Assembly: GCF_018363915.1 (NCBI RefSeq)
Contig: NZ_JAGZMY010000007.1
Source of the DNA: Anaerococcus vaginalis
Lineage (GTDB): Bacteria; Bacillota; Clostridia; Tissierellales; Peptoniphilaceae
Length of the DNA: 64,000 nt
Reading direction: 5' to 3' (one strand)
The notes under the pieces were generated by a model, which saw only the letters and a list, made by a program, of their open reading frames with translations, did no database searches and had not been told where the DNA came from. The position numbers were made by a program, and so were the translations under genes. Each line of letters opens with the position of its first letter. The first letter of the stretch is position 1. Below, piece by piece: positions 12,387 to 48,105 of this stretch.

Positions 12387-13334
12387 ATGAGTAATAGTAG
12401 TTTAGTTGATTTAGTTAGTTACAGTCCAAACCATAGTGGAAGAAGAACACATCCTATAACCAAGATAGCTATACACCATACAGCAGGAGTTTTAACTGCA
12501 GCTGGTATTGGTAATGTATTTAAATCTAGGAGTAGGCAAGCTTCTTGTAATTATGGGATTGGAAATGATAACAAGATAGTTCTAGTAGTAGATGAAGCAA
12601 ATAGGGCATGGACAACATCAAATGCATGGTGTGATAATAGGGCAGTAACAATCGAAGTTTCAAACTGTCAATACGGTGGTAATTGGCTTGTTTCAGATAG
12701 GGTTTTGAATACTTTAATAGATTTAGTTGCGGATATATGCAGAAGAAACGGGATAAAAAACTGCACTTATACGGGCGGAACAGACGGGGTTTTACAAATG
12801 CATAAGTGGTATGCACAGACTTCTTGTCCTGGACCTTATCTTGCTAGTAAATTTACTTATATTGCCCAAGAAGTAAATAAGAGATTAAGAGGAGAAAAAA
12901 ATACAAGCTCATCTAATAATCTTTATAGGGTTAGAAAATCTTGGGGAGATAGTAAAAGTCAAAAGGGTGCTTTTAAAAATCTTAATAATGCAATAGATTT
13001 GGCAAAGAAACATAAATATAAGGTTTTTGATAGTAATGGTAAACAAGTTTACCCAGAAGTAAAAAAAGCAAGTACAAGCTCTAACGGAGGCGTATTTATT
13101 AAGAACGAAAAATGGACAGGTATAACTCTAGATGTTTGTAATGTTAGGAGTGCTCCTAATACTAATGCTCCTATTGTTGCACAATATCAAAAAAATGAAC
13201 CAATACATTACGACCAAGTCTGGGAGGGTGATGGTTATAGATGGATTTCCTACATTGGAGCAAATTCTGGACAAAGAAGATATGTTGCTTGCAGGAGATT
13301 AAGTGGGGATACGACACCTTGGATTAGATTTTAA
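12387..13334 (+). CDS. endolysin: N-acetylmuramoyl-L-alanine amidase (Amidase_2/PGRP) with C-terminal SH3b
   Basis: The IAIHHTAG zinc-amidase motif is present. The C-terminal stretch NVRSAPNT..GDGYRWISY is a bacterial SH3 fold signature. RBS AAGGAGG. Confidence 0.85.
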   Translation: MSNSSLVDLVSYSPNHSGRRTHPITKIAIHHTAGVLTAAGIGNVFKSRSRQASCNYGIGNDNKIVLVVDEANRAWTTSNAWCDNRAVTIEVSNCQYGGNWLVSDRVLNTLIDLVADICRRNGIKNCTYTGGTDGVLQMHKWYAQTSCPGPYLASKFTYIAQEVNKRLRGEKNTSSSNNLYRVRKSWGDSKSQKGAFKNLNNAIDLAKKHKYKVFDSNGKQVYPEVKKASTSSNGGVFIKNEKWTGITLDVCNVRSAPNTNAPIVAQYQKNEPIHYDQVWEGDGYRWISYIGANSGQRRYVACRRLSGDTTPWIRF

Positions 13335-13399: not shown

Positions 13400-13639
13400 T
13401 TGACTAAAAAAGATAAGCTTATCAAGAAAATGAAAACAAGCCCTAGAAATATTAGTCCGGATGAAATAGAAAAAATGCTAGGGTGGTTAAATTTTGATAA
13501 AAGAAAAAACAATGCGGGTAGTCATCAAACTTTTAAAAGAAAATCTGATGGAAAAGTTTTTAACTTGGTTTTAACAAATAACCCAGTTAAAAAATATCAA
13601 GTCGATGATATACTTAAAATAATTGAAGAAGGGGAATAA
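13400..13639 (+). CDS. hicA: type II toxin HicA (mRNA interferase)
   Basis: 79 aa carrying the GSH motif (NAGSHQTFKRK) of HicA/YcfA-like toxins. TTG start lies 11 nt after AAGGGGGG. Confidence 0.75.
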   Translation: MTKKDKLIKKMKTSPRNISPDEIEKMLGWLNFDKRKNNAGSHQTFKRKSDGKVFNLVLTNNPVKKYQVDDILKIIEEGE

Positions 13640-13648
13640 CTTCCCCTT
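13629..13648 (+). promoter_or_regulatory. hairpin AAGGGGAA-UAAC-TTCCCCTT enclosing the hicA stop codon and abutting the hicB TTG start
   Basis: 8-bp perfect stem with a tetraloop that contains TAA. Likely a translational-coupling element. Confidence 0.4.
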
Positions 13649-14016
13649 TGGAAGTCAAATACTTTAAAAAAATGAAAGATTTAAAATATTATTTATCTTT
13701 ACCATGGAATTTTAAAGTTAAAAAGGTAAGTGATGAAAGCGGAAATTATTATCTAGGCTGTATTCAAGAAATTCCAGAAGTAAGAGGTCATGGAGATACT
13801 TTAGATGAATGTTATGATCTTGTGATGGAAATATTAGAAACAAATTTAGAATTAATGATTGAAGACGGAGAAAAAATACCAGAACCAGTTGATAAAAATT
13901 ATTCTGGAAAATTTAATGTAAGAATACCTAAATCTCTTCATAAAAAATTATCAGAGGAAGCAGAAGATGAAGGTATATCATTAAATCAATTAGCAGTTTA
14001 TAAATTAAGTATATAA
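13648..14016 (+). CDS. hicB: type II antitoxin HicB (HicB fold plus C-terminal RHH)
   Basis: N-terminal HicB-like region (YYLGCIQEIPEVRGHGDTLDEC). C-terminal RHH (KFNVRIPKSLHKKLSEEAEDEGISLNQLAVYKL). The start is either TTG 13648 or ATG 13672. Confidence 0.75.
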   Translation: MEVKYFKKMKDLKYYLSLPWNFKVKKVSDESGNYYLGCIQEIPEVRGHGDTLDECYDLVMEILETNLELMIEDGEKIPEPVDKNYSGKFNVRIPKSLHKKLSEEAEDEGISLNQLAVYKLSI

Positions 14017-14021
14017 GTTTT

Positions 14022-14050
14022 AAGCGATTACATAAGTAGTCGCTTTTTTA
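14022..14050 (+). terminator. rho-independent terminator after hicB
   Basis: AAGCGA-12 nt loop-TCGCTT followed by TTTTTT. Confidence 0.4.
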
Positions 14051-14072
14051 GTTGATAAAAAGGAGATATTAA

Positions 14073-14441
14073 ATGGATAATTTAAAAATATTTGTAATCG
14101 GATTATTTGCTGTTGTTGCTGTATATTTTATAATTAGGGGATTAAAGCTAACTAAAGAATTCGAAAAAAATTTGAAGAGTGAAGAAGCTAAATTTGCTTT
14201 AGAACGATTAAATAAGATTCTTGAAAGAGCTGTAGGAGCAGCAAACCAAGTTATAGTTAATAATGCAAAAGAAGATGGGACTTTCACACCATCTTATGGT
14301 AAAAAAGTAAAAGATGAGGTTTTTGGAACAGTTTTAAAAGTCCTTGGAGATGAGGGAAAAAATCTTTTAAATGAAGCCTTGGGAGATTTAGATGAATATA
14401 TCTCAAACGGTATAGAAGATGAAGTTGATAAACGAAAATAG
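14073..14441 (+). CDS. small membrane protein (N-terminal TM then helical domain); holin-like or superinfection-exclusion candidate
   Basis: RBS AAAAGGAG. N-terminal TM segment (IFVIGLFAVVAVYFII). Followed by two strong terminators. Confidence 0.35.
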   Translation: MDNLKIFVIGLFAVVAVYFIIRGLKLTKEFEKNLKSEEAKFALERLNKILERAVGAANQVIVNNAKEDGTFTPSYGKKVKDEVFGTVLKVLGDEGKNLLNEALGDLDEYISNGIEDEVDKRK

Positions 14442-14492: not shown

Positions 14493-14527
14493 AGACCACT
14501 GGCTTTTGGCTGGTGGTCTTTTTTTAT
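14493..14527 (+). terminator. rho-independent terminator T1
   Basis: AGACCAC...GTGGTCT stem followed by TTTTTTTATTT. Confidence 0.55.
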
Positions 14528-14561
14528 TTGCGGTATAATAATTATAAAGGCAATACCATTA

Positions 14562-14595
14562 AGCTACCTAATAACTAGGTGGCTTTTTTTATTTT
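14562..14595 (+). terminator. rho-independent terminator T2
   Basis: AGCTACCTA-ATAAC-TAGGTGGCT (9-bp stem with one G-U pair) followed by TTTTTTTATTTT. Confidence 0.6.
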
Positions 14596-14705: not shown

Positions 14706-14734
14706 ATATAAAAAAGGACTGAATCAACAGTCCC
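14706..14734 (-). terminator. terminator of the minus-strand cargo operon (downstream of gene A)
   Basis: On the minus strand GGGACTG-TTGATT-CAGTCC is followed by TTTTTTATATAG. Confidence 0.5.
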
Positions 14735-14760
14735 TTTATTGTATAATTTTTATGTTGTAA

Positions 14761-15192
14761 TTATTTCAAATTGTTTTCCAAAGCTCCCACGACAATATCT
14801 TTCATACTTTCGCCTGTTTTTTCACTTTTATCTTTTAATTTATTATATAAATTTTCTGGTATCAATAAACTAAAGGCAATATTTCCTTCTTCTTCGATTT
14901 CAAATATTTTTTCATAATCGTCGGCATCAAGATTTTCTTCCGCCCATTTCTTTGCCTCATTTATTGTTATAGGTGTTATTTTCTCACTACCAGACCAACT
15001 ACTGCTTCCAGTTTGGACTGCATAGCTTGACGCTGGTCCACCTCCTCCATACATAAAAAACTCTCCCGTTTTCTTTTTATAAAGTTCCTCACATTCGTAT
15101 TGCAAATCGGCTGAATTATATATATTCTCCCATTTTCCAATAAATTCTGCTGTGTCTGTGTCGTATCTTTTACCATTAATTATTTTTTTCAT
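14761..15192 (-). CDS. hypothetical protein with C-terminal ribbon-helix-helix-like DNA-binding segment (cassette gene A)
   Basis: RBS AAGGAGAA. C-terminal IAFSLLIPENLYNKLKDKSEKTGESMKDIVVGALENNL follows a beta-strand/helix/helix pattern. It is the last gene of the minus-strand cargo operon and is followed by a minus-strand terminator. Confidence 0.4.
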   Translation of the reverse strand: MKKIINGKRYDTDTAEFIGKWENIYNSADLQYECEELYKKKTGEFFMYGGGGPASSYAVQTGSSSWSGSEKITPITINEAKKWAEENLDADDYEKIFEIEEEGNIAFSLLIPENLYNKLKDKSEKTGESMKDIVVGALENNLK

Positions 15193-15312
15193 TGTTTTCT
15201 CCTTTTAATATTTTTTTATTTATGCTATAATTTAATTAAGCAATAGCTCAACAAGGTGAAAAGCCTTGCGGATTGAAATATGTTTTTATTTGTGTTACAA
15301 ATACAGGCATAG

Positions 15313-15346
15313 GAGGGGATATTTATTATCCCCTCATTTTTATATT
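15313..15346 (+). terminator. hairpin GAGGGGAT-atttatt-ATCCCCTC with T-run on the plus strand (between cassette genes B and A)
   Basis: 8-bp GC-rich stem. The U-tract is on the plus strand, so it may act as an antisense terminator or as an intra-operon attenuator. Confidence 0.3.
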
Positions 15347-15654
15347 GTTTTTAGATTTTCTTCTAGTAATCTTTTTAAATCTTCATCTTCTTCGTATTTT
15401 GTTTTCATAATTAATTCATCTTTTTTTAAATCTATGTAAGCATTGCTCACTTTATCTTTCATTTTTCTTGCTTTTTTATTGGATACTGATACTCCATTTA
15501 TAAAGGCTTCTTCTATCGAACCTGTGTGTCGATATTTGCAATAGATATTGGCTAATTTTATACCTGCCTTATTTAGATATAATCTATCCATATCTAACAT
15601 AGTCCACCTTTTAGCTCCCATTTTTATTAATTTTTCTATTTTTTCTTGATTCAT
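15340..15654 (-). CDS. hypothetical protein (cassette gene B)
   Basis: 104-aa ORF 20 nt after gene C. There is no obvious SD before the annotated ATG, so the true start may be an internal Met. Confidence 0.3.
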   Translation of the reverse strand: MNQEKIEKLIKMGAKRWTMLDMDRLYLNKAGIKLANIYCKYRHTGSIEEAFINGVSVSNKKARKMKDKVSNAYIDLKKDELIMKTKYEEDEDLKRLLEENLKTI

Positions 15655-15674
15655 AAGATTTTTATTTTTATATT

Positions 15675-15857
15675 TTAACCATATATATCAAATTCATCAT
15701 CTTCGCCATAAACTGTATACCAAGTTAAATTATAATGTTGTCCACTATTTCCGTTGTTTTCAACTTCTCTTACATATTCATTTTCTTCTATTTCTTCAAA
15801 TTCTTTTTGTGTAACTTCTTTACCTTCGTATCTGTTTTTTAATTCTTCAAATGTCAT
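15675..15857 (-). CDS. very acidic 60-aa protein (cassette gene C), DNA-mimic-like
   Basis: RBS AAGGAGA. About 17 Asp/Glu against 6 Lys/Arg. It is the first gene downstream of promoter-operator copy P1. Confidence 0.4.
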   Translation of the reverse strand: MTFEELKNRYEGKEVTQKEFEEIEENEYVREVENNGNSGQHYNLTWYTVYGEDDEFDIYG

Positions 15858-15905
15858 TTTTAATCTCCTTTTTATTTTTTTATTGTGTATCTCTTTGTTA
15901 ATGTT

Positions 15906-15957
15906 ATAATACTACCTTATTTATACGCTGTCAATATATATAGTGTAAATATTTACA
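15906..15957 (-). promoter_or_regulatory. promoter-operator copy P1: TTGACA(15934-15929)-17-TATTAT(15911-15906) with upstream palindrome TGTAAATATTTACA (15944-15957)
   Basis: Consensus -35, 17-nt spacer and near-consensus -10 read on the minus strand, preceded by a perfect 14-bp palindrome. Confidence 0.55.
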
Positions 15958-15993
15958 ATAATTTGTTAATGAGGGGTAGGATTTTTCCTACCC

Positions 15994-16314
15994 TTATATT
16001 AATTCTAAATCTACAAATCCGTAAAAGTTATCATCAAAGTAGTCTGTAATTACATCGCTTTTATCATAATTGTAAGAATCTAATAGATCAGTTATATTCT
16101 TTTTTATTTCTTGATTTCGCTTGTTATATTCTTTAACTTTTATTTTAATAAAAATTGCATTATATTCACTTTTTACACTTATTTTTATGCCTTTATATAA
16201 TTTTCTTGCTTGTTTTTTTACTTCTCTTGCTATCTCTTTTGTTGTTAGGTTTGGATTGTAATTGTTTCCTATAATGTTGTTGTAGTTGTATGTTGTTTCT
16301 ATCATTTTCCCCAC
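15994..16314 (-). CDS. hypothetical protein with basic N-terminus and acidic C-terminus (cassette gene D)
   Basis: Begins 3 nt after the gene E stop. The start is GTG at 16314 or, more likely, ATG at 16305 after GGGTGGGG. Confidence 0.4.
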   Translation of the reverse strand: MGKMIETTYNYNNIIGNNYNPNLTTKEIAREVKKQARKLYKGIKISVKSEYNAIFIKIKVKEYNKRNQEIKKNITDLLDSYNYDKSDVITDYFDDNFYGFVDLELI

Positions 16315-16317
16315 CCT

Positions 16318-16581
16318 TTATTTATAAATTTTAATATTGTTTACTTCTATTTTGTTTATTTGGTTTATTGTAAATTCTATTCCTGTCAAACTTTCTTGTT
16401 TTTCTGTACATTCTTCAAAAAAATCTTTTATATTTTCATCTTCGTTTTCGTTAAAATTTCCTAAGTCGTCTAAAATCCAGCTAAAGTTTTCTTCTGCTTT
16501 TTCGTTCCAATTTTTTATTAATTCTTCTTCTGTTTTTCCGTTTGCGTATGTGTAATCATTGTAATTATCGTAAATTTTCAT
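16318..16581 (-). CDS. very acidic 87-aa protein (cassette gene E), DNA-mimic-like
   Basis: RBS AAGGAG. About 23 Asp/Glu against 9 Lys and no Arg. It is the first gene downstream of promoter-operator copy P2. Confidence 0.4.
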   Translation of the reverse strand: MKIYDNYNDYTYANGKTEEELIKNWNEKAEENFSWILDDLGNFNENEDENIKDFFEECTEKQESLTGIEFTINQINKIEVNNIKIYK

Positions 16582-16702
16582 TTCCTACTCCTTATAATTG
16601 TTTTTTGTTATATAAAGTAGTAAGATACTAAATAAGGGTATTTTAAAAGAGTTAATTTTTTAATACTCCTATAAAGTGGCGGTCAAACTACTTTATTTGT
16701 TA

Positions 16703-16740
16703 GATAGTCGGTATTGGTAGTACTGGCTATCTTTTTTATT
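16703..16740 (+). terminator. orphan plus-strand terminator in presumed attR region
   Basis: GATAGTCGGTA-ttggtag-TACTGGCTATC (11-bp stem with two G-U pairs) followed by TTTTTTATTT. Confidence 0.5.
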
Positions 16741-16756
16741 TCCTTTTGTTAATTAT

Positions 16757-16808
16757 ATAATACCATGATATATTTACATTGTCAATATAAACGATGTAAA
16801 TATTTATA
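16757..16808 (-). promoter_or_regulatory. promoter-operator copy P2: TTGACA(16785-16780)-17-TATTAT(16762-16757) with upstream TGTAAATATTTATA (16795-16808)
   Basis: About 50-bp block nearly identical to P1 (TGTCAATATA..A..TGTAAATATTTAnAATAA), placed upstream of gene E. Confidence 0.55.
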
Positions 16809-16881
16809 ATAAGTCAATTTATATAAAAATTTAAATAAACCTAAAATCTAAAATATAAAAAATATTACATTAAATTTTAAT

Positions 16882-16903: not shown

Positions 16904-17024
16904 ATATATCATTTTATCTTTTTTTGCGGTCGTAAACGTTGCTATTTAAGGCGTTGCTGTAATTATTAATATTGCTTACTTCCCACCACCAGCACCATTA
17001 ATTTTTTTATTTTTTTCATATTTA

Positions 17025-17053
17025 AGCTATGCAAAATTGCATAGCTTTTTTTG
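17025..17053 (+). terminator. orphan plus-strand terminator upstream of polA
   Basis: AGCTATGCA-AAAT-TGCATAGCT (9-bp perfect stem) followed by TTTTTTT. Confidence 0.6.
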
Positions 17054-17171
17054 ATGCCTTTTTAAAAAATTTTTTTTAAAATTTTAATTTTCAAATTTTT
17101 AATTAGCAAATTTTTCTACTTATTTTTTTGTGAAAATTAAAATGTGTTATACTTATAGAAAGGAGAAATAT

Positions 17172-46909: not shown

Positions 46910-47884
46910 ATGAAGATAATTATAGATACTTATGGAGTAGATGACGGAATAAAAATTCCAATAGAAGGTGCAATTAGTGCTTTAAAAGAAAAAGATTTTG
47001 TGCCAGTTTTTTCTGGAGATAAAGAAAAAATAGAAAAAATTATTGATGGAAGAATAAAATCCTACGAAATAATAGATGCTAAAGACAAAATTGAAAATAA
47101 TGAAGATCCAGTAAAGGCCATTAGAAGAAAAAAAGATTCTACAATGGTTAAAGCTTTCGAAAAATTAAATGAAGATGGTTACGATGGATTAGTTTCTGCA
47201 GGCTCAACAGGAGCAATTCTTGCAAGCGGATTATTTATTTCTGGAAGAATTAAAGGAATAAAAAGAGCTTGCATTGCAACAAGCCTACCAACTTATGAAA
47301 ATACAACTTTATTATTGGATACTGGGGCAAATATGGATTGCAAAGCAGAATTTTTAAAAGAATTTGCAATAATGGGAAGTGTTTTTGCAAAAAATGTACT
47401 TCATATAGAAAATCCTACAGTTTCACTTTTAAATGTTGGAATCGAAGAACATAAGGGCAACAAATTAGCAAAAGAAACTTACAAATTATTGGAAGAATCT
47501 TCAATAAATTTCAAAGGAAATATTGAAGCAAGAGATTTATTTACTGGCAAGACTAATATAGTAATAGCAGATGGATTTGACGGAAATATTGCTATAAAAA
47601 CTGCAGAAGGTGTAATTAGTCTTTTCAGTAAGGAAATTAAAGATGCAATTTACAAATCATTTTCAACAAAAATTGGGGGAGCCTTGATAAAAAATTCTTT
47701 AAAAGAAAATTTATCAAAATATAACTCAGATTCTATAGGAGGAGCTCCACTTTTGGGAGTAAACCAATATGTTTACAAGGCTCACGGCAATTCTAATGAA
47801 AAAGCATTTAGCTCAGCGATTTTAGGCTTAATAGATTATGTAAATACAAATACAATAGAAAAAATAAAAGGAGAATTAGAATGA
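46910..47884 (+). CDS. plsX: phosphate acyltransferase PlsX
   Basis: PlsX family protein in the rpmF-plsX-acpP context. Confidence 0.85.
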   Translation: MKIIIDTYGVDDGIKIPIEGAISALKEKDFVPVFSGDKEKIEKIIDGRIKSYEIIDAKDKIENNEDPVKAIRRKKDSTMVKAFEKLNEDGYDGLVSAGSTGAILASGLFISGRIKGIKRACIATSLPTYENTTLLLDTGANMDCKAEFLKEFAIMGSVFAKNVLHIENPTVSLLNVGIEEHKGNKLAKETYKLLEESSINFKGNIEARDLFTGKTNIVIADGFDGNIAIKTAEGVISLFSKEIKDAIYKSFSTKIGGALIKNSLKENLSKYNSDSIGGAPLLGVNQYVYKAHGNSNEKAFSSAILGLIDYVNTNTIEKIKGELE

Positions 47885-48105
47885 TAAGAGAAGAATTAAT
47901 TGAATTAGTAAAAGAAAATTTAGATATTAATGAAGATGAAATTGATTTTGAAAAAGAAATCACAGAATATGACATAGATTCAATCGATATGCTTGATTTT
48001 ATTATGGCAATTGAAGATAAGTATGACATAGAATTTTCTGATGACGAATTAGATGAAATCGAAAAATTTTCAGATGTAATATCTTTAATAGAAAGCAAAA
48101 ATTAA
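47881..48105 (+). CDS. acpP: acyl carrier protein
   Basis: 74 aa and acidic. The DSIDMLDF segment carries the phosphopantetheine-attachment Ser. Confidence 0.7.
   Translation: MIREELIELVKENLDINEDEIDFEKEITEYDIDSIDMLDFIMAIEDKYDIEFSDDELDEIEKFSDVISLIESKN

What the first reader, a model, noticed from the sequence alone, without database searches (positions are those of the whole stretch)
14706..16810. Prophage cargo cassette of five small proteins (two extremely acidic) ending in an RHH-like gene: candidate anti-defence (Acr/Aca-like) or lysogenic-conversion module
Five small ORFs (60-143 aa) lie between the lysis/hicAB genes and the presumed attR, in the classic moron slot, and are transcribed opposite to the phage late genes. 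Genes E (87 aa) and C (60 aa) are roughly net -14 and -11 with almost no Arg, which is the composition of DNA-mimic anti-restriction and anti-CRISPR proteins. Each is followed by a partner ORF (D, B) with a basic N-terminal half and an acidic C-terminus. The terminal gene A ends in IAFSLLIPENLYNKLKDKSEKTGESMKDIVVGALENNL, which has the strand-helix-helix pattern of CopG/Arc-type repressors. Two copies of a consensus sigmaA promoter, each carrying a TGTAAATATTTACA palindrome, drive E-D and C-B-A. I do not recognise any of the five proteins as a named family.
Basis: partly seen in the sequence, partly recalled or inferred. Interest (0 to 1): 0.8.

Follow-up and report, generated by a model that had tools for sequence, protein, structure and literature searches.

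The report
Anaerococcus prophage anti-defence-type gene cassette
An Anaerococcus prophage carries five small genes between its lysis genes and the host junction, under two look-alike promoters probably self-repressed by the last gene, in the layout of the known anti-CRISPR locus of Listeria phages; they are good but unproven candidates for new inhibitors of bacterial immunity.

Summary
Five conserved minus-strand genes (E, D, C, B, A) lie between the prophage lysis/hicAB genes and host polA. They form two operons behind a duplicated near-consensus sigma-A promoter.

Across distant relatives, A-containing operons start at promoters with a 10-12 nt operator present twice. One copy abuts the -35 hexamer and the other lies 27-33 bp upstream. 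The operator sequence changes between lineages, which argues that A is the autorepressor.

The cargo upstream of A is hypervariable, small and mostly acidic. In 12 of 62 loci A is followed, or in one case preceded, by a CapR+AP2 ("CasPR"-type) gene. Its homologue follows AcrIIA1 in the Listeria phage A006 acr locus, which has the same position and orientation.

Gene D is an LPD29 domain protein. C, D and E were found only in Anaerococcus.

No cargo protein matches a known anti-defence, defence or toxin family, so the function is inferred by association. DNA mimicry of C and E was not tested.

Verdict: an Acr/Aca-like locus is the best reading (about 0.5), as a new variant of a known kind.

The parts
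16757..16785 (-). Promoter P1 of the E-D operon: -35 TTGACA at 16780-16785, a 17-nt spacer, a TG-extended -10 TATTAT at 16757-16762
   Evidence: Promoter scan, 11 of 12 with TG. Coordinates checked. Part of a 79-nt direct repeat with P2.
16795..16808 (.). P1 operator site 1, TATAAATATTTACA (one mismatch to the palindrome), upstream of the -35
   Evidence: The same element is present in every Anaerococcus A-type promoter.
16770..16779 (-). P1 operator site 2, ATGTAAATAT in the -35/-10 spacer. It is the inverted copy of ATATTTACAT in site 1.
   Evidence: Read from the sequence. A spacer site abutting the -35 is the conserved position in distant A-operons.
16582..16750 (-). Conserved ~170-nt 5' leader of the E-D operon. 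It has a 5' hairpin at 16702-16732, a second hairpin, a terminator-like hairpin, and a helix that can sequester the ribosome-binding site.
   Evidence: Nine sequence variants upstream of LPD29 operons. Hairpin 1 has 5 pairs with compensatory changes. Fold z = -2.8. No Rfam match.
16318..16581 (-). Gene E, 87 aa, net charge -12, no Arg. An orphan family found only in Anaerococcus.
   Evidence: Homologues in L007, L016, L024 and L108 sit in different gene orders.
15994..16305 (-). Gene D, 103 aa from the ATG at 16305: a stand-alone LPD29 domain protein
   Evidence: Pfam PF18847, E = 1.1e-5, 26.4 bits against a cutoff of 27. A 100% identical Anaerococcus vaginalis protein is named LPD29 domain-containing, and 12 homologues carry PF18847.
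15972..15995 (.). G+C-rich hairpin between the E-D operon and P2. It has a T-run only on the plus strand.
15906..15934 (-). Promoter P2 of the C-B-A operon: -35 TTGACA at 15929-15934, -10 TATTAT at 15906-15911
   Evidence: (11 of 12).
15944..15957 (.). P2 operator site 1, the exact palindrome TGTAAATATTTACA
15918..15926 (-). P2 operator site 2, GTATAAATA in the promoter spacer (an imperfect copy)
15675..15857 (-). Gene C, 60 aa, net charge -12. It is found only in Anaerococcus. Its C-terminal motif is fused to an E-like N-terminus in a 145-aa relative.
15340..15654 (-). Gene B, 104 aa, pI 9.4. It belongs to a widespread phage-associated alpha/beta domain family (GAxRWT..DRLYLN..TGNISSA..ISNS..YID) of unknown function.
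   Evidence: 222 representatives. Alignment A3. AF2 pLDDT 96. No significant PDB fold match. Only uncharacterised viral matches. The same domain lies two genes upstream of the A homologue in Lactobacillus phage LFP01.
15193..15339 (-). Conserved B-A intergenic region with a hairpin at 15313-15335. It probably attenuates read-through into A.
   Evidence: The same region precedes A in L003 and L007 behind different upstream genes. Hairpin.
14761..15192 (-). Gene A, 143 aa, with two domains. Residues 1-97 form a six-strand sheet plus two helices, a conserved domain with no Pfam model. A ribbon-helix-helix occupies about residues 105-142. A is the inferred autorepressor of P1 and P2.
   Evidence: It is the constant member of every related cassette.
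14716..14733 (-). Intrinsic terminator after gene A (GGACTG-loop-CAGTCC followed by a T-run)
   Evidence: Read from the sequence. Hairpin listed. Coordinates checked.

Best explanation
This is the accessory (anti-defence-type) locus of a temperate Anaerococcus phage. It is the positional and architectural counterpart of the anti-CRISPR locus of Listeria phages.

Two copies of one near-consensus sigma-A promoter module fire without phage activators. P1 transcribes a structured leader and then E-D. P2 transcribes C-B and, past an attenuating hairpin, A.

Inferred: A dimerises through its C-terminal ribbon-helix-helix. It binds two operator sites per promoter, one abutting the -35 in the spacer and one about 27 bp upstream, and so represses both operons. 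Expression is therefore a burst on entry followed by a low steady level in the lysogen, which is Aca-like logic.

Inferred by association only: the cargo E, D (LPD29), C and B, and possibly the N-terminal domain of A itself, act on host or competitor immunity. The targets are unknown.

Shown here: the genes, their conservation and shuffling, the RHH fold prediction, the promoter duplication, and the operator pattern that varies with lineage.

Not shown: DNA binding, transcription, and any anti-defence activity.
For: 1. Position. Related prophages and viral contigs carry A-containing cassettes in the same slot: int-attP-cassette, convergent with lysis. Lactobacillus phages LFP01 and JNU_P7 have an A homologue as the last gene between endolysin and integrase.

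2. A is constant and the cargo is shuffled. Observed orders are E-D|C-B-A, E-C-B-A, E-D-A, C-A, C-177-A, B-A-129 and A-129.

4. Operator. The promoter module with its site precedes every Anaerococcus A-operon. In distant lineages a 10-12 nt element occurs twice, and site 2 always starts at base 6 of the -35. The element differs between lineages: TTAGCGCTAA, TTTCTAGAAA, TTTGTACAAA, TTTGTGGCAA, TTTATATAAA. The RHH strand sequence differs too.

5. Cargo character. Of 82 same-strand neighbours within 250 nt of A, 61 are singletons. No toxin family was found among the 50 plausible neighbours scanned. Of 27 tightly linked upstream partners, 12 are strongly acidic and 1 is basic.

6. Association with validated anti-CRISPR genes. 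In 12 of 62 loci a CxCxCG-18-CGC (CapR) + AP2 protein lies next to A. This includes the Anaerococcus loci L003 and L025. These are the defining features of CasPRs (preprint 10.64898/2026.02.23.707548). The Anaerococcus 233-aa protein is homologous to Listeria A006 gp22 (E = 6e-15). gp22 follows AcrIIA1 in a locus of identical layout.

7. LPD29 genes occur in aca4 operons, and an RHH Aca (Aca14) represses two operons through shared inverted repeats (preprint 10.64898/2026.07.27.740549).
Against: No protein of the window's cassette is homologous to a known Acr, anti-restriction or other anti-defence protein, and none has a known fold.

The window itself has no CasPR-type gene. The association comes from sister loci.

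A is not homologous to AcrIIA1. Its relation to Aca14 could not be tested.

The N-domain of A is conserved from Firmicutes to Proteobacteria and archaeal elements. That breadth is unusual for a CRISPR-specific inhibitor.

One A-family member sits directly upstream of a MazF toxin gene.

Operator site 1 is centred near -50, which is also an activator position.

There are no expression data.
Confidence: 0.5

Rival explanations
1. It is a toxin-antitoxin, abortive-infection or superinfection-exclusion module serving the lysogen. A would be a two-domain antitoxin built like HicB, with a neutralising N-domain plus an RHH autorepressor. One of its variable partners (B, the 177-aa, or the 129-aa protein) would be a toxin or effector.
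For: A has the HicB-like domain order of a globular N-domain followed by a C-terminal RHH. A genuine family member on a Methylobacterium plasmid (hhalign 99%, E = 2.5e-18) lies 8 nt upstream of a PemK/MazF toxin gene. Many upstream partners are translationally coupled to A. A conserved neutraliser with many unrelated partners is a pattern known for promiscuous antitoxins (own knowledge: the PanA/Panacea systems). Prophage ends also host defence genes.
Against: No toxin family was found among the 50 neighbours of A that were scanned. There is no PADLOC hit. Tightly linked upstream partners are mostly acidic, not basic. A occurs with no constant partner, and N-domain-only forms exist without an RHH. 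The recurrent partner is a CasPR-type DNA-binding protein, not a toxin. B has no enzyme-like fold match.
Confidence: 0.15
2. It is an ordinary moron or early-gene cluster with a function unrelated to immunity, such as host takeover, control of the lysogeny decision, or modulation of DNA metabolism. A would be simply its local regulator.
For: All five proteins lack any functional annotation. The lysis-att slot holds many kinds of morons. The N-domain of A is broadly conserved across phyla, which suggests a general target or ligand.
Against: The locus is syntenic with a validated acr locus and is associated with CasPR-type genes. LPD29 is linked to polyvalent early-entry proteins and to aca operons. 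The cargo turns over very fast at genus level, which is typical of arms-race genes.
Confidence: 0.25
3. C and E specifically are DNA-mimic inhibitors, like Ocr, ArdA or AcrIIA4.
For: Net charge is -12 in 60 aa and in 87 aa. They are the 2nd and 3rd most acidic of 72 ORFs in the window. Related cassettes carry further small acidic proteins.
Against: The argument rests on composition only. There is no homology to known mimics. No structure was predicted for C or E, because both structure-prediction jobs went to A and B. Acidic small proteins also act as antitoxins, chaperones or protein-binding inhibitors.
Confidence: 0.2

Closest known systems
Listeria temperate-phage anti-CRISPR locus (phage A006: gp25-gp24-AcrIIA1(gp23)-gp22 CapR/AP2 gene)
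   Same: It has the same place and orientation: between integrase/attP and the lysis genes, convergent with them. It has small variable genes first, then a ~145-aa two-domain protein that carries the DNA-binding autoregulatory domain, then a CapR+AP2 gene. The Anaerococcus relatives show C/E-like - X - A - 233 aa. The 233-aa protein is homologous to gp22.
   Different: A is not homologous to AcrIIA1. A uses a C-terminal RHH rather than an N-terminal HTH. None of the cargo is related to known AcrIIA or AcrIB proteins. The window's own cassette lacks the CapR/AP2 gene.
Aca14, the ribbon-helix-helix anti-CRISPR-associated regulator (preprint 10.64898/2026.07.27.740549)
   Same: It is an RHH regulator encoded last in an anti-defence operon. 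Inverted repeats lie in the promoter of its own operon and of a neighbouring operon, giving co-repression of two operons.
   Different: Aca14 was described from Pasteurella and other Proteobacteria as a small RHH protein with a helical extension. A has an additional ~100-aa N-terminal domain. Sequence relatedness could not be tested, because no Aca14 sequence was at hand. The Aca14 repeat overlaps the -10, whereas here site 2 abuts the -35.
CasPR (CapR + AP2) transcription-silencing anti-CRISPRs of Bacillota phages (preprint 10.64898/2026.02.23.707548)
   Same: Proteins with the CxCxC...CxC cysteine spacing and an AP2 domain lie next to A-family genes in 12 of 62 loci, downstream in 11 of them.
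   Different: None is present in this window. Activity of the Anaerococcus homologue is untested. Pfam detects AP2 in three relatives of its BLAST cluster but not in the Anaerococcus protein itself.
LPD29 domain of polyvalent proteins (Iyer et al. 2017, PMC5512222)
   Same: Gene D matches PF18847, and its database twin is named LPD29 domain-containing. The family is proposed to act early in invasion, including in solo forms.
   Different: D is a solo 103-aa protein, not part of a polyvalent protein. No function is known for LPD29.
HicB- and MazE/ParD-type RHH antitoxins
   Same: The RHH fold matches. The domain order of a globular N-domain followed by an RHH is as in HicB. One family member is paired with MazF.

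Membership tests
Aca (anti-CRISPR-associated autoregulator) | Small protein with a sequence-specific DNA-binding domain (HTH, or RHH as in Aca14) | tested here: met
   RHH predicted at about residues 105-142. RHH Pfam hits in homologues. A also carries an extra 100-aa domain.
Aca (anti-CRISPR-associated autoregulator) | Encoded in one operon with a validated acr gene | tested here: inconclusive
   No validated acr is in the window's operons. In 12 of 62 loci, including Anaerococcus ones, A lies next to a CasPR-type gene. Its homologue lies in the A006 acr locus.
Aca (anti-CRISPR-associated autoregulator) | Binds inverted repeats in the acr promoter and represses it | not testable with these tools
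   Only comparative support exists: a two-copy operator that changes with lineage, with a fixed position at the -35.
AcrIIA1 family | Sequence homology to AcrIIA1 (N-terminal HTH plus C-terminal domain) | tested here: not met
LPD29 (PF18847), gene D | Match to the Pfam model at or above the gathering score | tested here: inconclusive
   26.4 bits against a cutoff of 27, E = 1.1e-5. Homologues at 68-74% identity carry PF18847, and NCBI/UniRef name the identical protein LPD29 domain-containing. The conserved C-terminal D...GF motif that I recall for this family is present (DDNFYGF). That motif is from my own knowledge and was not checked against the Pfam text.
Type II toxin-antitoxin system | Adjacent gene encoding a recognisable toxin that the RHH protein neutralises | tested here: not met
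   B, C, D and E give no toxin family hit, and none appears among the 50 neighbours of A that were scanned. The single exception is a MazF neighbour on a Methylobacterium plasmid. Toxicity itself is not testable here.
DNA-mimic anti-restriction / anti-CRISPR proteins (Ocr, ArdA, AcrIIA4) | Surface array of carboxylates that imitates the DNA backbone; strongly negative charge | tested here: inconclusive
   The charge criterion is met for C and E. Structures were not predicted and there is no homology.
Known anti-phage defence systems (PADLOC) | Match to a defence-system protein model | tested here: not met
   No hit for any of the five proteins at E <= 1.

The most novel reading that the evidence does not exclude
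The A family (an uncharacterised beta-rich N-domain, with or without an RHH) may be a widespread, bifunctional anchor of anti-defence loci in Bacillota prophages, analogous to AcrIIA1 but unrelated to it. Its N-domain would itself be a broad-range immune inhibitor or signal binder, found from Firmicutes to Proteobacteria and archaeal elements. B, C, E and the solo LPD29 protein D would be four new anti-defence families. The LPD29 operon would in addition be controlled by a new structured 5' leader RNA.
Probability: 0.25. Interest if true: 0.8.

Novelty: new variant of a known kind. Interest (0 to 1): 0.62.

Why it matters
If the reading is right, gene A is a new marker for finding anti-defence genes by guilt by association. 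It would apply to Clostridia, Peptoniphilaceae and lactobacilli, where very few anti-CRISPR or anti-restriction proteins are known. The family is large: 991 protein clusters, and homologues in at least 150 of the scanned genome contigs.

The cassette offers four or five untested candidates. It would also be a second, independent case of an RHH-based regulator of such loci, with a clear and testable two-site operator. Finally, it would give the first functional context for a solo LPD29 protein.

If the reading is wrong and this is a TA module or a plain moron, the conserved promoter-operator-regulator unit is still a compact, portable regulatory module.

Tried and rejected
- DNA-level searches of the cassette against phage and plasmid collections found nothing.
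- NCBIfam and PADLOC gave nothing useful for any of the five proteins, and PHROGs only a match of D to a family of unknown function and weak Arc-like repressor matches for A's C-terminus. PDB sequence searches with A and with the A and B profiles gave only weak RHH, MatP and Hdf matches.
- The afdb50 library was unavailable.
- Rfam has no family for the leader or the intergenic regions.
- A scan of viral contigs for the leader motif found nothing. The one metagenome scan, made with D, gave a single distant locus.
- The weak sequence match of the B profile to phage P1 Hdf (E = 0.07) was not borne out by the fold search, so I dropped it.
- A is not related to AcrIIA1, to A006 gp24, or to the 99-aa gene upstream of the AP2 gene in C. 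difficile phage CD1801.
- I rejected spurious ORFs, because all five are conserved as proteins in many contigs.
- I consider lysogenic conversion by a secreted or surface factor unlikely. By eye the five proteins show no signal peptide or membrane segment. This was read from the sequences, and no predictor was run.
Full report
**1. What is there**

The window begins inside a prophage. Tail, endolysin (12387-13334), HicA, HicB and a holin-like gene run on the plus strand up to 14441. Host polA starts at 17130.

Between them, five ORFs lie on the minus strand:
- E, 16318-16581
- D, 15994-16305 from its ATG
- C, 15675-15857
- B, 15340-15654
- A, 14761-15192

All five are conserved as proteins elsewhere:
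- A has 991 homologues, best identity 91%.
- B has 222 cluster representatives at the 50% level.
- D has 31 homologues, one of them 100% identical from Anaerococcus vaginalis.
- E has 30 homologues, all from Anaerococcus.

The host is therefore an Anaerococcus, probably A. vaginalis.

C and E each have a net charge of -12. They are the second and third most acidic of 72 ORFs in the window.

The two best sigma-70-type promoters in the region stand in front of E and in front of C. Each is TTGACA, 17 nt, TATTAT, matching 11 of 12 positions. Both lie inside a 79-nt direct repeat of 75% identity. The 14-nt palindrome is exact at P2 and one base off at P1. That gives 2 matches against 0.15 expected by chance.

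**2. The cassette is a shuffled accessory locus with one constant gene**

Related prophages and viral contigs carry cassettes in the same slot. In contigs that include the integrase, the order is int - attP region - cassette, followed by the lysis genes in convergent orientation.

The gene content is reshuffled between relatives:

| Loci | Gene order |
|---|---|
| Window, L109 | E-D, then C-B-A |
| L016, L024 | E-C-B-A |
| L108 | E-D-A |
| L017, L025 | C-A-233aa |
| L001 | C-177aa-A |
| L003 | 145aa-177aa-A-233aa (the 145-aa protein is an E-like/C-like fusion) |
| L007 | B-A-129aa |
| L010 | A-129aa |

The prophages sit at different host sites, so the cassette travels with the phage.

C, D and E were not found outside Anaerococcus. 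A and B are widespread. In Limosilactobacillus phage LFP01, a protein with the B domain, a 55-aa acidic protein and an A homologue are the last three genes between endolysin and integrase. They follow a promoter of the same style.

**3. Gene A**

With a 41-sequence alignment, AlphaFold gives a confident model (pLDDT 89.5). It has a six-stranded sheet plus two helices (residues 1-97), a floppy linker, and two C-terminal helices preceded by the segment IAFSLLI.

The N-domain is the better-conserved part. Invariant positions include Y10, T12, the KKTGEFF motif, W83 and E85. It also exists without an RHH, as ~101-aa forms. It occurs in Lactobacillus and Paracoccus phages, in a Methanomicrobiales virus, and on Lactococcus, Roseovarius and Halorubrum plasmids.

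**4. Operator evidence**

Every Anaerococcus A-containing operon starts with the same ~90-bp module. In it, ATATTTAC(A/G)T lies upstream of the -35, and its inverted copy, ATGTA(A/T)A(A/T)AT, lies in the spacer. In the window this module also drives E-D, which has no regulator of its own.

In 62 genome loci from other Clostridia, Actinobacteria and other groups, half have a near-consensus promoter within 2.5 kb upstream of A. In many of these, a 10-12 nt element occurs twice: once starting at base 6 of the -35 hexamer, and once 27-33 bp upstream. The element differs from lineage to lineage:

| Locus | Element |
|---|---|
| L065 | TTAGCGCTAATT |
| L072 | TTTCTAGAAACT |
| L084 | TTTGTACAAAGT |
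| L099 | TTTGTGGCAACT |
| L038, L075 | TTTATATAAA |

The RHH strand of A differs between the same lineages.

A repeat that keeps its position while changing its sequence together in both copies is what a co-evolving repressor-operator pair looks like. A is the only gene these loci share by construction. This is the main support for A as autorepressor. It remains an inference.

**5. What kind of cargo**

None of B, C, D or E hits a toxin, defence or anti-defence model.

B folds with pLDDT 96 into an alpha/beta domain. It has no significant PDB neighbour and only uncharacterised viral neighbours.

D is a solo LPD29 domain. That family was defined in polyvalent proteins of phages and conjugative elements, which are thought to act early in invasion. 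LPD29 genes were recently noted in aca4 operons.

Across the A family:
- Of 82 same-strand neighbours within 250 nt, 61 are singletons.
- Tightly linked upstream partners are small and mostly acidic: 12 of 27 are strongly acidic and 1 is basic.
- No toxin family appears among the 50 plausible neighbours that were scanned.

**6. Link to validated anti-CRISPR loci**

The one recurrent partner of A is a 210-280-aa protein, usually immediately downstream and often overlapping A's stop codon. It has the cysteine pattern CxCxCG-18-CGC and an AP2 domain. It is present in 12 of 62 loci, including Anaerococcus L003 and L025.

CapR plus AP2, with conserved cysteines at 33/35/37/56/58, defines the CasPR anti-CRISPRs of Bacillota phages (preprint 10.64898/2026.02.23.707548). 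The cysteine spacing is identical.

The Anaerococcus 233-aa protein is homologous to gp22 of Listeria phage A006 (E = 6e-15) and to AP2 proteins of C. difficile phages.

In A006 the order is integrase - attP - gp25 - gp24 - AcrIIA1 (gp23) - gp22, followed by ply and hol in convergent orientation. That is the layout of the Anaerococcus cassettes, with A in the place of AcrIIA1. A is not homologous to AcrIIA1, so this is analogy of position and architecture, not family membership.

A second 2026 preprint shows that an RHH protein (Aca14) represses its own and a neighbouring anti-defence operon through shared inverted repeats. The window has the same logic.

**7. Rivals**

*TA-like reading.* This is kept alive by A's HicB-like domain order, by tight coupling to its partners, and by one clear family member 8 nt upstream of a MazF gene on a Methylobacterium plasmid. 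Against it stand the absence of toxins among the scanned neighbours, the acidity of the partners, and the lack of any obligate partner.

*A non-immune moron function* cannot be excluded.

*DNA mimicry of C and E* is untested beyond composition.

**8. Verdict**

- The regulatory architecture is well supported by comparison (about 0.75).
- The anti-defence function of the cargo is supported only by association (about 0.5).
- The locus is best called a new variant of a known kind. It is an acr/aca-type locus whose anchor is an uncharacterised two-domain RHH protein, carrying four orphan or near-orphan cargo genes.

Noticed in passing
window 16582-16750 (minus strand); also L007 5560-5750, L010 5505-5700, L024, L039, L105, L107, L108: A conserved ~170-nt 5' leader precedes LPD29 operons whatever the first gene is (E, a 79-aa or a 97-aa gene) and whatever the promoter. 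Hairpin 1 keeps its pairing through 5 compensatory changes. The segments AUAAAGUAGU and ACUACUUUAU are invariant, and the latter can alternatively pair with the ribosome-binding site. There is no Rfam match. It may be a new regulatory RNA, but the nine variants are too similar to test the rest of the structure.
   Followed up: partly
window 14493-14519, 14561-14585, 15313-15335, 15972-15995, 16702-16732, 17024-17047: Six terminator-like hairpins have their T-run on the plus strand. The scan found 8 terminator-like sites in all against 0.9 expected. Three of these six lie inside the minus-strand cassette at module boundaries. They might block antisense read-through from the late operon, or act as stabilising or attenuating hairpins in the minus-strand transcripts.
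   Followed up: no
window 15193-15339; L003 5804-6000; L007 8823-8969: The ~147-nt spacer in front of gene A (a hairpin plus ATTTCAATCCGCAAGGCTTTTCACCTTG...) is conserved even where the upstream gene differs. Where present, it belongs to A rather than to its neighbour, though in L001 A follows the 177-aa gene after only 14 nt. No convincing promoter was found in it.
   Followed up: partly
L007 4300-5750 and L010 4600-5700: Larger sister islands carry a second promoter type with a different palindrome (TTGACTTATGCACTTGCATAATGTATAAT). They also carry two further small RHH-like ORFs (GRPxK...RLT.EEK motif), one of them not called as a gene. Several regulator-operator pairs therefore coexist in these islands.
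   Followed up: no
L021 3001-3863 (Methylobacterium fujisawaense plasmid NZ_CP155001.1): A genuine A-family protein (annotated as a HicB family antitoxin) lies 8 nt upstream of a PemK/MazF toxin gene. This may be a case of the A architecture used as an antitoxin.
   Followed up: partly
L088 4001-5399 (Faecalimonas MAG): A 102-aa A homologue with the N-domain only is followed by a 326-aa protein whose C-terminal half matches the Cas5d Pfam model (27.7 bits against a cutoff of 23). No obvious CRISPR-Cas operon surrounds it. It may be a co-opted Cas component.
   Followed up: no
L003 4814-5251: A 145-aa protein joins an E-like N-terminus (MRIY..NY.NTYA.G.TE) to a C-like C-terminus (...W[FY]T.Y...DEF..YG). 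The two acidic families therefore recombine as modules.
   Followed up: partly
window 13400-14441: The hicA/hicB pair sits inside the lysis module, between the endolysin and a second holin-like gene (PHROG holin, E = 9e-14). Several related prophages have the same arrangement.
   Followed up: no
window 47881-48105: A 74-aa ORF with net charge -22 is the most acidic ORF in the window. From its size and charge I guess it is the host acyl carrier protein. It served only as a reference point for the charge comparison.
   Followed up: no
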